Source: Dehalococcoidia bacterium | GTDB lineage: Bacteria > Chloroflexota > Dehalococcoidia > Lucifugimonadales > UBA3495 | Reading direction: 5' to 3' | NCBI GenBank assembly: GCA_030740155.1 | Contig: JASLXV010000025.1 | Span: 32,001-96,000, forward strand | Length of the DNA: 64,000 bases | In this document: positions 1-43,935 of the stretch, piece after piece | Position numbering within the stretch: the stretch's first letter is position 1 | Layout of the letters: each line of letters starts with the position of its first letter | Notes under the pieces: model-generated | The model's input: the letters and a program-made list of their open reading frames with translations, nothing else | What the model was told of the DNA's origin: nothing | Database searches by the model: none | Program-made: the position numbers and the translations under genes

Positions 1-998
1 ACCAGGAAGCCCTCGTCCTGGTCCTCGAACTCATCCGGCCAGGACCGGCCCCCAAAGTGGTACCGGTTCCTCAACCGGCCCGCGGGTATCCGGACGTGCT
101 CGAAGAGATGGTTGATTACGTCGGCCCTGCTGAACCCGGAGGCGGCGATTTGCGCGGCGTGCTCCGGCCCCAGCACCACGACGGTGGTGGGTTGCCGCGC
201 CTGAAAGTAGTAGCCGGATATGCCGCCGGCGGTCATCGAGCCGACCAGGGTCTCTAGCACGCCCTCGCCGGTTTCCACGGTCCCTTCCACCATGGTATGG
301 ATGCCCCTGGCGGCCACCACGGTGACGGTGCTGACCTCGGGCGGATAGCCCATTGCCACGTGTAGCGGCTCCCAGGGGTTGCGCTCCTGGTTCTCGGTGA
401 AGCACATGGTGTACTTGCCAGGCCAGCCGTGGGTAGACTTCTCCATTGTTTCGGCGGTGGCCCCTCCGAGGTTTCGCATGGTCAGGCGAAGGGCCCGGCC
501 GATGGTGGCGTTGGCCCGGTGGCCCGAGCCGAAGACGGCGGTGCCGCCGTGGATCCCCAGCTTCTGGGCAATGGGGCCGCTGACGATCACCGCCGGGGCC
601 GCTCCCCCGGTAGTGGTGGTGATGGACCCCGCGTTGAACTGGGGCTGGAGCACGGCTTTCACCGCAGCCAGCACCACCGGGAAGTAGTCGGGCTTGCTGC
701 CGGCCATCACGGCGTTGATGGCCACCTTCTCCACGGTGACCATGCCGTTCAGCGGCGGTATCCGGCCCAGCACCTGCTTTCCGGGCAGCGGGCACGCCTC
801 CAGCATTTCCAGCACCAGGTCCTCGGTGGGTGGAATGACCGGCAGACCATCGGTCCAGCCTTTGTCGTAGAAGTAGTCGTTGATCTGGCTGACCGAGCCC
901 TCCACCTGCAAGCGGGTGGACTCCTGGCCCAACTCCGGCGCACCGGGATTCCCGTCGACGCTCCGAGGGCCCTGGGAGCGGCTGGAAGAGCTAGCCAT
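1..998 (-). CDS. Conserved uncharacterised protein, partner of the UGSC selenoprotein (3' end runs off window)
   Basis: Read manually: ATG at 998, open to the window edge (MASSSSRSQG...KGWTDGLPVIPPT...AINAVMAGSKPDYFPVV...GHRANATIGRALRL...PWEPLHV...VLGPEHA). Start overlaps the TAG of the upstream gene. Clear paralog at 42895-43935. Confidence 0.85.
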   Translation of the reverse strand, partial: MASSSSRSQGPRSVDGNPGAPELGQESTRLQVEGSVSQINDYFYDKGWTDGLPVIPPTEDLVLEMLEACPLPGKQVLGRIPPLNGMVTVEKVAINAVMAGSKPDYFPVVLAAVKAVLQPQFNAGSITTTTGGAAPAVIVSGPIAQKLGIHGGTAVFGSGHRANATIGRALRLTMRNLGGATAETMEKSTHGWPGKYTMCFTENQERNPWEPLHVAMGYPPEVSTVTVVAARGIHTMVEGTVETGEGVLETLVGSMTAGGISGYYFQARQPTTVVVLGPEHAAQIAASGFSRADVINHLFEHVRIPAGRLRNRYHFGGRSWPDEFEDQDEGFL

Positions 999-1551
999 TC
1001 TGGCGCTCCCAGGCTGGCAGTAGCAGGCTCTCGGTGATGCCCTCGATGCTGGTCTCGGCGATCTCCAGCATCTGGTCCGGTCTCATGCTGCCGGGAGTGC
1101 AGTTTAGCACCGCCACCGGGTGTTCCGGTAGGCCGAGGGCCCGGCCACGGAGTTCCGCTGCCTTGCTGAACACCTTGGTGATAACCGTAACCGCGGGCTT
1201 GCTTCGCTTTTCCGTTTCAATTCCGTCGTGGAGACCCCACGTTATGCAGGACCCTCAAAAAGCGATGGCGTGGATGATGGCGTCGCAGCTGGACGACATC
1301 TCATCCAATACCTCAGGGGGAGTGGGCAAACTCTGGCTGGCCTTTCGGTAGGTGACCAGCTTGGCCACACCGTAATCCTCCTGGAGCAGGCGGCCCAGCT
1401 CCATCAGGTAGGCGTCGACGTTCCGTTTCCGGTTGTCGATCAGGCCTATGGTCGAGCCTCGAAGCCCGGATAAGCGCGGCGCCAAACTGAGCTGCCGGGG
1501 TGCGCCTTCCGCCGCCGGGTGGAGTACCGTGGTCAGTTGTGTCGCCACCAT
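991..1551 (-). CDS. UGSC-family selenoprotein (UxxC motif, in-frame UGA at 1255-1257)
   Basis: ORFs 1255..1551 and 991..1173 share a frame. Junction reads HAIAF-TGA-GSCITWGLHDGIETEKRSKPAVTV. SD AGGAG/GAGG upstream of ATG 1551. Hairpin 13 nt after the UGA. Confidence 0.88.
1227..1241 (-). promoter_or_regulatory. SECIS-like hairpin of the UGSC gene
   Basis: CGTGG-GGTCT-CCACG stem-loop starting 13 nt downstream of the in-frame UGA, with G-containing apical loop. Confidence 0.65.
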
Positions 1552-1618
1552 CGTGCCTCACTCCTTTCTGGCCGTGGTCCGGCCATAGAAGGATTTGGTT
1601 TCCTGCCTTCGAGAGGCG

Positions 1619-1648
1619 AGTGTACCAACTGGGTAAGATGGGCGTCAA
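1619..1648 (-). promoter_or_regulatory. sigma70-type promoter for the UGSC operon
   Basis: TTGACG-N18-TACACT with TG extended -10. Confidence 0.55.
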
Positions 1649-42894: not shown

Positions 42895-43935
42895 ATGACT
42901 ACAAGCTCCGAAAGATCCAAGCTGGTGGAAGCCAGTGACACTATCGAAGCCATCGAGGAGTGCTATCGCCTGGGTTGGAGCGACGGCCTGCCGGTGGTCC
43001 CGCCGGTCGACTACAAGGTCCGGGAGATGCTGGAGCACGTGGGGATGACCGGTGAGGAGGAGCTGCTGTCGCTGGAGATGCGGCGGCGGGTGCTGACCTC
43101 GGAGAACGCCGCGGCCAACGCGGTGATGGCCGGGTGCCTCCCGGAGTACTTCCCCGTTCTGGTTGCCACGCTGCGGGCCCTTGAAGAGGACAAGAACGAA
43201 GTCCACATGGCTTCGGCCTCCACCAGCTCTCCCGCCATACTGATGGTCGTCAACGGCCCCATCCGGCACCGGATCGGCGTTAACTCCAGGGACGGGCTTT
43301 TCGGCCCCGGCTTTCGGGCCAATGCCTGCTTGGGCCGGGCCATCCGGCTCTGCTTCATGAACGGTTTCGACGCCCGTCCCGGCACCCTGGACCGGGGCAC
43401 GCTGGGCAATCCCTCCAAATACACTCTCTGCATCGCCGACAACGAGGAGGACTCCCCCTGGGAACCCCTCCACGTCAGCCGGGGGTTCAAAGCCGAGGAC
43501 AGCTGCATTACCGTGGCCGTGGCCTACAACCCCACCACCGTCAACAACCGGTACGGCCATACCGGGGAATCCATCCTGTCCTCCTTGGCCGACACCATGA
43601 AGTCCGCCTTTCTGGGCCAGAAATTTCCCGGCCAGTGGGCGATAGTCGTCGGCCCAGAACACGCCCTGACCCTTAAAGAGGGAGGGTGGAGCCGCCGGAA
43701 CATCCAGGATTATCTGATCGAGCACGCCATCCGCTCCCGCGCCGAACTGGTTCGCCTGGGGGTGGCTCAAGGGCCGGAAAAGCCCGGCGACGAAAAGCTG
43801 ATTCTGCACTGCGCCAAAGACCCGGACGATATCCTGCTGCTCATGGGTGGCGGTACCGGAGGGCGCAACAGCGCCATCATCGATATGAGCCATTTCAAGA
43901 TGCGCACCCGCAAGATAGACGTGCCCGGCGCCTAG
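42895..43935 (+). CDS. Conserved uncharacterised protein, paralog of 1..998
   Basis: GWSDGLPVVPP, ANAVMAGCLPEYFPV, GFRANACLGRAIRL, PWEPLHV, VGPEHA. Confidence 0.88.
   Translation: MTTSSERSKLVEASDTIEAIEECYRLGWSDGLPVVPPVDYKVREMLEHVGMTGEEELLSLEMRRRVLTSENAAANAVMAGCLPEYFPVLVATLRALEEDKNEVHMASASTSSPAILMVVNGPIRHRIGVNSRDGLFGPGFRANACLGRAIRLCFMNGFDARPGTLDRGTLGNPSKYTLCIADNEEDSPWEPLHVSRGFKAEDSCITVAVAYNPTTVNNRYGHTGESILSSLADTMKSAFLGQKFPGQWAIVVGPEHALTLKEGGWSRRNIQDYLIEHAIRSRAELVRLGVAQGPEKPGDEKLILHCAKDPDDILLLMGGGTGGRNSAIIDMSHFKMRTRKIDVPGA

What the first reader, a model, noticed from the sequence alone, without database searches (positions are those of the whole stretch)
1..1551. Two-subunit UGSC selenoprotein system hidden by a UGA
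Seen: two same-frame ORFs are joined by TGA into F-U-G-S-C (a UxxC redox motif). A G-loop hairpin lies 13 nt downstream, and the stop overlaps the start (ATGGCTAG) of a larger conserved protein, with a shared promoter upstream. Known: bacterial Sec insertion uses a hairpin just 3' of the UGA, and UGSC-motif proteins are a recognised selenoprotein family whose function I do not know to be established. Inference: a Se-dependent two-component redox enzyme with unknown substrate.
Basis: partly seen in the sequence, partly recalled or inferred. Interest (0 to 1): 0.8.

Follow-up and report, generated by a model that had tools for sequence, protein, structure and literature searches.

The report
Selenoprotein pair copied 28 times
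A marine bacterium carries 28 diverged copies of a gene for a predicted selenium-containing protein of unknown function, each beside or fused to an unnamed partner gene, and the pair is likely a two-part bond-cleaving reductase related to proline reductase.

Summary
Confirmed. Window 991-1551 (-) reads through one TGA into a 186-aa UGSC-family protein (Pfam PF24696, E 1e-36). The genome has selA, selB, selD and tRNA-Sec. Across 28 paralogs in this genome the post-UGA hairpin shows compensatory changes, though this copy alone folds no better than chance. The overlapping 372-aa gene is the 'Unknown_1' domain seen fused to UGSC in 2008. All 28 UGSC copies are fused to it (11) or lie within 2.3 kb (17), and copy numbers agree within one in 39 of 41 genomes. 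The UGSC domain is a distant homolog of the GrdB/PrdB selenocysteine domain with a predicted flavodoxin-like fold, not the thioredoxin fold suggested in print. The partner is unrelated to GrdE/PrdA and has no clear structural match (best Z 4.6). Best reading: a PrdB-like, thioredoxin-recycled reductase in which the partner selects the substrate (inferred, 0.45). Substrate and physical binding are untested. This copy is atypical (Phe for Asp before Sec; Ser for the partner's conserved Cys). The scan noted the same pairing earlier on other genomes (8 notes); the 28-copy expansion is what this locus adds.

The parts
1619..1648 (-). Promoter-like site TTGACG-N18-TACACT with TG before the second hexamer; candidate shared promoter
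   Evidence: L001 19648-19619 = window 1648-1619; 3 sites found in the region against a shuffle mean of 0.5; consensus match only
1556..1567 (-). Shine-Dalgarno-like AAAGGAGTGAGG just upstream of the ATG at 1551
   Evidence: read directly
991..1551 (-). UGSC-family gene, 186 aa with predicted Sec99 (F-U-G-S-C); flavodoxin-like model; distant homolog of the GrdB/PrdB Sec domain
1255..1257 (-). In-frame TGA, predicted selenocysteine codon
1227..1241 (-). SECIS-like hairpin, stem +17..+21 / +27..+31, loop GGUCU with G at +22/+23
   Evidence: supported by covariation across paralogs, not by its own energy
991..998 (-). 8-nt stop/start overlap ATGGCTAG coupling the two genes (specific to this genome)
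1..998 (-). Partner gene ('Unknown_1' family), 372 aa in full, running about 120 bases past the left edge; no Pfam/NCBIfam family, no clear fold match; Ser101 where the family has Cys

Best explanation
The two genes likely encode a two-part selenium-dependent reductase that works like D-proline reductase PrdB but with a different, unnamed partner subunit. Shown from sequence: the UGA is flanked by one conserved domain, the genome has the full Sec machinery, and the two genes are always adjacent or fused. Inferred from homology: Sec99 sits at the start of a helix in a flavodoxin-like domain, in register with the GrdB/PrdB Sec, which in Prd attacks a carbon of the bound substrate and breaks a C-N bond (PMC11229817, passages). 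Inferred: the 372-aa partner binds and polarises a small organic substrate without a GrdE/PrdA-type proprotein; the selenolate attacks and breaks a carbon-heteroatom bond; Cys102 releases the product as a Se-S ring; a thioredoxin-type carrier re-reduces it. Inferred: the 28 diverged pairs serve different substrates, as proposed for other enzyme expansions in marine Dehalococcoidia. The substrate is not identified. This copy, with Phe98/Ile103 and partner Ser101, is likely a specialised variant.
For: Profile-profile UGSC vs this genome's GrdB/PrdB: probability 93.5, E 2.4e-7, Sec on Sec. With the four motif columns masked E is 5e-5, score 38; 30 column shuffles reach at most 21.7 and two fold-matched controls at most 25.7. 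NCBIfam GrdB model TIGR01917 hits 6 of 28 paralogs (best 5.9e-6) and the PrdB model 1 of 28. 28 of 28 UGSC copies are fused to (11) or within 2.3 kb of (17) a partner gene. Presence agrees in 41 of 41 genomes; counts are equal in 30 and within one in 39. Cognate pairs co-diverge (Mantel rho 0.42, 0 of 5000 permutations; unfused only 0.25, 94 of 5000). Partner homologs are fused to AhpC/TSA, thioredoxin-reductase-like and ferredoxin-thioredoxin reductase domains (1 of 8 scanned each). GrdA was found in only 11 of 41 genomes against 34 for UGSC, pointing to a Prd-like dithiol route rather than the Grd acetyl-phosphate route. The partner keeps polar residues D50, N95, R161, N163, R168, N176, E202, H213.
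Against: No substrate clue: none of 13 neighbour queries is enriched after allowing for multiple tests (lowest p 0.033, queries drawn from the neighbours themselves), and orthologous loci have different neighbours. The partner is not like GrdE/PrdA (probability 0.23), so the Schiff-base activation that makes Prd chemistry work has no identified equivalent. 4 of 14 full-length fusions lack Sec/Cys altogether. The GrdB similarity is distant and strongest over 98 columns. No GrdB/PrdB structure was found in the PDB to compare with. The window copy is below the NCBIfam cut-off (87.6 vs 125 bits) and lacks two family-typical residues.
Confidence: 0.45

Rival explanations
1. A thiol-disulfide, peroxide or sulfoxide reductase: U-x-x-C works as in thioredoxin-like selenoproteins and the partner only presents an oxidised target. 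This is the reading implied in print.
For: U-x-x-C in 27 of 28 paralogs. Partner fusions to AhpC/TSA, TrxR-like and FTR domains. [quoted passage not shown] Peroxiredoxin-like genes lie near 2 of 24 clusters (p 0.033 uncorrected).
Against: The model is a five-stranded flavodoxin-like domain; no thioredoxin-fold chain appears among the rows listed by either fold search. The sequence kin are GrdB/PrdB. 28 diverged pairs with a 1:1 partner seem excessive for general antioxidant work.
Confidence: 0.2
2. Covalent but non-redox catalysis (isomerase, lyase or group transfer): the selenolate adds to a substrate held by the partner and leaves again, and the reductant only repairs the site.
For: The partner's best, weak fold matches are chorismate mutase (Z 4.6, rmsd 2.9, 91 residues) and class I fumarate hydratase alpha (Z 4.5, rmsd 4.5, 165 residues). 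The second Cys is absent in 1 of 28 paralogs and in some homologs. Neighbours are general catabolic genes.
Against: Z below 5 is within background by the tool's own note. The second Cys is kept in 27 of 28 copies. Fusions to electron-delivery domains suggest net reduction.
Confidence: 0.2
3. The partner is a self-cleaving pyruvoyl proprotein, unrelated in sequence to PrdA but cut at Gly100-Cys/Ser101, making the system a full functional copy of Prd.
For: Cys101 is kept in 93 of 96 diverse rows and is Ser here, a residue that can also form a pyruvoyl group (recalled). PrdA is cut before a Cys (PMC11229817, passages).
Against: The same column is Ala in 5 of 157 representative rows, and the model puts it just after a helix in a well-folded core; Cys/Ala/Ser exchange fits a buried small residue. 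No likeness to GrdE/PrdA.
Confidence: 0.08
4. The TGA is a true stop, a sequencing error or a pseudogene lesion, or the organism reads TGA as another amino acid.
For: This copy's hairpin is not unusually stable, and the copy deviates at conserved positions.
Against: Same TGA in 28 of 28 paralogs and in all 150 listed matches across relatives. Identical contigs in 4 studies. Complete Sec machinery. Hairpin covariation. An ortholog at 89% and 95% identity keeps both frames and both deviations. TGA also ends ordinary long ORFs (978 counted).
Confidence: 0.03

Closest known systems
UGSC family (seleno)protein (Pfam PF24696, NCBIfam NF041046) and the 'UGSC/Unknown_1' fusion of PMC2398784
   Same: Same domain and U-G-S-C motif. 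The partner matches the Unknown_1 alignment in that paper's Figure S1A by eye (N-x-V-M-A-G-C-x-P-x-Y block).
   Different: Print gives a family name, an abundance (255 Sec and 21 Cys forms in GOS), a guessed thioredoxin fold and one fusion. Here: near-obligate 1:1 pairing, GrdB/PrdB homology, a flavodoxin-like model, 28 copies in one genome, and Phe rather than Asp before Sec.
D-proline reductase PrdA/PrdB
   Same: Homologous Sec domain with U-x-x-C; two-subunit design; no need for GrdA.
   Different: The partner is unrelated to PrdA. UGSC lacks the inserted segment between the first strand and the Sec strand of GrdB/PrdB (global alignment). No prdC/prdH-type neighbours were seen among the 129 neighbour ORFs scanned.
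Glycine/sarcosine/betaine reductase protein B (GrdB/F/H with GrdE/G/I)
   Same: Three of this genome's six GrdB paralogs read T-U-G-S-C-N-R-C, the same local motif; GrdB, GrdH and GrdF models hit several UGSC paralogs.
   Different: No third Cys (U-x-x-C-x-x-C), no ~190-aa N-terminal domain, no GrdE-type partner, and GrdA was not found in 23 of 34 UGSC-positive genomes. The genome encodes its own separate Grd set.
Catabolic paralog expansions of SAR202 Dehalococcoidia (PMC6946804)
   Same: Ancient, diverged paralogs (median identity 28% and 33%, no pair above 90% among 26 cognate pairs) in a marine Dehalococcoidia-like genome.
   Different: Those expansions are oxidative or hydrolytic families; 'seleno' does not occur in that paper's main text.

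Membership tests
UGSC family PF24696 | Score above the Pfam gathering cut-off over the whole domain | tested here: met
   126.8 bits vs 25, profile 2-170 of 172
UGSC family NF041046 (equivalog) | Score above the curated cut-off of 125 bits | tested here: not met
   87.6 bits, E 7.8e-25; a divergent member, not an equivalog by NCBI's rule
UGSC family | (U/C)-G-S-C motif | tested here: met
   U99-G-S-C102
Bacterial selenoprotein | selA, selB, selD and tRNA-Sec in the genome | tested here: met
   all above cut-off
Bacterial selenoprotein | SECIS hairpin just 3' of the UGA with a loop G | tested here: met
   81.6% of cells paired, 5 of 7 pairs with two-sided changes, slid controls at most 46.9%; a G in the loop in 28 of 28, at +22/+23 in 14 of 28. 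Codon constraint and kinship inflate these counts, and the structure was drawn from the same sequences.
Bacterial selenoprotein | Cys in homologs opposite the UGA | tested here: met
   10 of 14 full-length fused representatives show C (their DNA was not seen); 21 Cys homologs in PMC2398784 Table 2
Bacterial selenoprotein | Selenium found in the protein | not testable with these tools
   needs 75Se labelling or proteomics
GrdB/PrdB selenoprotein B (PF07355) | Match to PF07355 above cut-off | tested here: not met
   no PF07355 hit in 28 of 28 paralogs; only sub-threshold NCBIfam hits
GrdB/PrdB selenoprotein B | Homologous Sec domain with Sec in register | tested here: met
Grd/Prd reductase system | GrdE/PrdA-type pyruvoyl proprotein as partner (PF09338) | tested here: not met
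   partner has no Pfam hit; hhalign vs six GrdE-like paralogs gives probability 0.23
Glycine reductase system | Dependence on GrdA | tested here: not met
   GrdA found in 11 of 41 genomes, UGSC in 34; not found in single-contig genomes G002, G006 and G024 that carry UGSC
Thioredoxin-fold oxidoreductase | Thioredoxin fold | tested here: inconclusive
   the model (pLDDT 92) has strand-helix alternation and matches flavodoxin-like/Rossmann domains at Z about 10; an unlisted family is not thereby excluded
Two-subunit enzyme | Physical binding of the two proteins | not tested
   no complex model was obtained; only fusion, adjacency and copy-number evidence

The most novel reading that the evidence does not exclude
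UGSC plus its partner is a third branch of the Grd/Prd selenoenzyme superfamily that replaced the pyruvoyl subunit with a protein of a new fold. In this Dehalococcoidia genus it has expanded into a 28-member toolkit of reductive carbon-heteroatom cleaving enzymes for dissolved organic matter. It would be a major paralog expansion missed so far because gene callers stop at the UGA and the partner has no family model.
Probability: 0.3. Interest if true: 0.85.

Novelty: new variant of a known kind. Interest (0 to 1): 0.6.

Why it matters
UGSC is one of the most abundant aquatic selenoprotein families (PMC2398784) and a 2026 review still lists it as uncharacterised (PMC13188914, passages). A defined partner, a homology-based mechanism and a genome with 28 natural variants make the question testable: express pairs, screen substrates, solve the structure of a partner family that spans about 8,000 clusters at 50% identity with no family model. 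If the pairs cleave organic substrates, they add a selenium-dependent reductive arm to the metabolism of marine Dehalococcoidia. The family and one fusion were already in print, selenoprotein-rich Dehalococcoidia are catalogued (49 and 46 genes, PMC13326102, passages), and no substrate has been found, which caps the score.

Tried and rejected
Sequence searches of the PDB with the partner, both paralog profiles and the GrdB profile found nothing significant. Fold searches of the partner model gave no chain at Z 5 or more among 48,161 and Foldseek TM about 0.25; this does not prove a new fold. The atlas search with the partner returned only unnamed clusters of the same family. Partner vs GrdE/PrdA, vs the GrdB N-terminal domain and vs UGSC itself: no similarity. 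Neighbour annotation (129 of 159 ORFs within about 4 kb) and a permutation test gave no substrate. Hairpin energy of the window copy alone: not above chance. RNA-library contigs cover the UGA (X16, 1154-1539, 0 differences) and bridge the gene junction (X15, X17, X19), but contigs cannot show transcription, no silent control stretch was laid, and X19 also covers 1676-1800 upstream; not used as evidence. Contamination as the cause of the expansion (genome 7.65% contaminated) was rejected: no cognate pair above 90% identity and 24 copies in the sister genome G001. A genome-wide TGA scan was too noisy to count the selenoproteome (414 raw, 83 filtered candidates). No heterodimer model was obtained, so binding and the position of Sec99 relative to the partner stay open. 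No language-model look-alike search was obtained for the Sec subunit.

Full report
Observation. On the minus strand an ATG at 1551 opens a frame with one TGA (1257-1255) and a TAG at 993-991. Read with TGA as Sec it gives 186 aa with F-U-G-S-C. Pfam PF24696 covers both halves (126.8 bits, cut-off 25). NCBIfam NF041046 matches at 87.6 bits, below its 125 cut-off. The next gene starts inside the last codons (ATGGCTAG, 998-991) and is 372 aa in full. A promoter-like site lies at 1648-1619. Contigs from four DNA studies match 1-1800 without a difference; all may be sources of this assembly. The runs are marine metagenomes and the closest named homolog of the partner is from a Dehalococcoidia bacterium at 76%. 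A SAR202-type host is my inference.

Is the UGA selenocysteine? The genome has tRNA-Sec, selA, selB and selD, the last with its own in-frame TGA. PF24696 finds 29 places, 28 above cut-off, and all 28 have TGA at the motif; the 29th is a fragment at a contig end. All 150 matches listed for relatives carry a TGA. Ten of 14 full-length fused homologs show Cys at that position and four have neither (protein records only). The 45 bases from the UGA align without gaps in the 28 paralogs. A stem at +15..+21 / +27..+33 is paired in 81.6% of cells, five of seven pairs change on both sides (pair 21-27: 15 CG, 11 GC), 0 of 500 shuffles reach the pairing or covariation score, and slid controls give 25-47%. 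Caveats: the structure was drawn from these sequences, paralogs are kin and codons constrain the columns. Against synonymous recoding the mean z is -1.0 (21 of 28 negative) and the window copy is at +0.1 (z 0.49).

The partner. It has no Pfam or NCBIfam family and no PDB relative by sequence, yet a profile finds 8,024 clusters at 50% identity. It matches by eye the 'Unknown_1' domain that PMC2398784 showed fused to UGSC (passages and supplement file 1). In this genome 11 UGSC copies are fused to it (two of these appear frameshifted in the partner part) and 17 lie within 2.3 kb of it. The nine fused copies included in the tree form one side of a 100/100 branch (31 rows, three frameshifted pieces left out). 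Among the top 150 representatives, 62 carry all or part of a UGSC domain, three of them C-terminally. Over 41 related genomes presence agrees in all, counts are equal in 30 (7 of them zero/zero) and within one in 39; kin are not independent. Cognate pairs co-diverge (26 pairs, rho 0.42, 0 of 5000; 17 unfused pairs, rho 0.25, 94 of 5000). Counts are 29 here, 24 in the sister genome and 1-12 in the other 32 positive genomes.

What the Sec subunit is. The genome also has six GrdB genes and one PrdB-like gene, all with TGA, three reading T-U-G-S-C-N-R-C. Their profile aligns with the UGSC profile, Sec on Sec (probability 93.5, E 2.4e-7). The match survives masking of the motif (E 5e-5, score 38) and exceeds 30 shuffles (at most 21.7) and response-regulator and short-chain dehydrogenase controls. 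Curated GrdB, GrdH, GrdF and PrdB models hit 6, 2, 1 and 1 of the 28 paralogs at E up to 0.01. The AlphaFold2 model (pLDDT 92) has five strands alternating with helices and Sec at the start of the helix after strand 3; it matches many flavodoxin-like and Rossmann-type domains at Z about 10 with none standing out. This does not fit the thioredoxin fold suggested in PMC2398784. The partner model (pLDDT 93, pTM 0.92) has no match at Z 5 or above and is unlike GrdE/PrdA.

Mechanism. In D-proline reductase the PrdB Sec attacks the alpha carbon of proline held on PrdA's pyruvoyl group (PMC11229817, passages). By homology I infer that the UGSC Sec is likewise a nucleophile towards a substrate held by the partner, that Cys102 closes a Se-S ring on product release, and that thioredoxin-type carriers reset it. 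The last step rests on partner fusions to AhpC/TSA, thioredoxin-reductase-like and ferredoxin-thioredoxin reductase domains and on GrdA being found in only 11 of 41 genomes. How the partner activates its substrate is unknown. Neighbours are mixed catabolic genes with no enrichment over this genome's background. Binding of the two proteins was not tested. Confidence 0.45; rivals are thiol/peroxide reduction (0.2), non-redox covalent catalysis (0.2), a cryptic pyruvoyl partner (0.08) and a true stop (0.03).

This copy. The residue before Sec is Asp in 20 of 28 paralogs and Phe only here; the partner has Ser at a position that is Cys in 93 of 96 diverse rows. Both changes recur in the same-genus ortholog (89% and 95% identical) but not in five further orthologous loci, which keep Asp and Cys and the same gene order. 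The joint change may mark a shifted specificity or a contact between the two sites; neither is tested.

What is known. Six literature searches were run. Nine papers hold both 'UGSC' and 'selenoprotein'; I read passages of four (PMC2398784, PMC13188914, PMC9312934, PMC1976440) and saw only the listing for the other five. The passages read name the family, its abundance and the Unknown_1 fusion; none links UGSC to GrdB/PrdB, gives a function or reports such an expansion. Most subscription papers are outside the library, and database or supplement tables I did not open (for example BSepDB, PMC13326102, passages only) may already count these genes. Eight earlier notes of this scan on other genomes reach the same pairing and GrdB likeness; I read them after my own tests and do not count them as support.

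Verdict. A real selenoprotein gene of a known but functionless family, paired with an unnamed protein of unmatched fold; likely a PrdB-like reductase variant, strikingly expanded in this genus. Interest 0.6.

Noticed in passing
window 42895-43935 (+): A second partner-family gene with no UGSC gene found beside it; 80% identical to the partner gene on contig C80. In the sister genome a 33%-identical partner paralog sits directly upstream of the orthologous pair.
   Followed up: partly
L001 11444-12568 (+) (about 5.5 kb left of the window): Thiolase-like gene with an in-frame TGA (F-Y-D-U-Y-T); read through, PF22691 covers residues 244-374 across it. Candidate selenocysteine thiolase-like protein.
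   Followed up: partly
G000 C69, C17, C54, C79 (two), C91, C59: Six GrdB genes and one PrdB-like gene, all with TGA, eight GrdE-like matches and one GrdA: an expanded Stickland-type reductase set in a marine Dehalococcoidia-like genome.
   Followed up: partly
G000 C13:6701 (-), C12:8343 (-), C32:113661 (-), C74:61407 (-), C93:22655 (+), C95:42307 (+), C89:24971 (+), C79:13945 (-): Further in-frame TGA candidates, including a ferredoxin-like C-I-A-U-Q-T-C motif and several U-x-x-C motifs (labels by eye, unverified). With UGSC, Grd/Prd and SelD the genome has at least 37 predicted selenoprotein genes.
   Followed up: no
G000, UGSC and GrdB/PrdB genes: The base before the in-frame TGA is T in 27 of 28 UGSC and 7 of 7 GrdB/PrdB genes, against 197 of 978 for TGA stops of long ORFs; possible context preference for Sec insertion, partly explained by kinship.
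   Followed up: partly
L049 5159-13470 (G000 C62): A cluster of four stand-alone partner genes, one stand-alone UGSC gene and one fusion within about 8 kb.
   Followed up: no
proteins P0137, P0157, P0178, P0254: Full-length UGSC-partner fusions with no Sec or Cys at the motif, possibly inactive or regulatory forms.
   Followed up: no
L051 7475-8110 (+): Archaeal-type flagellin gene (PF01917) next to a UGSC pair.
   Followed up: no
L001 16664-16691 (+): A perfect TTGACA-16-TATAAT promoter consensus upstream of the 2-hydroxyacid dehydrogenase gene that converges on the partner gene.
   Followed up: no
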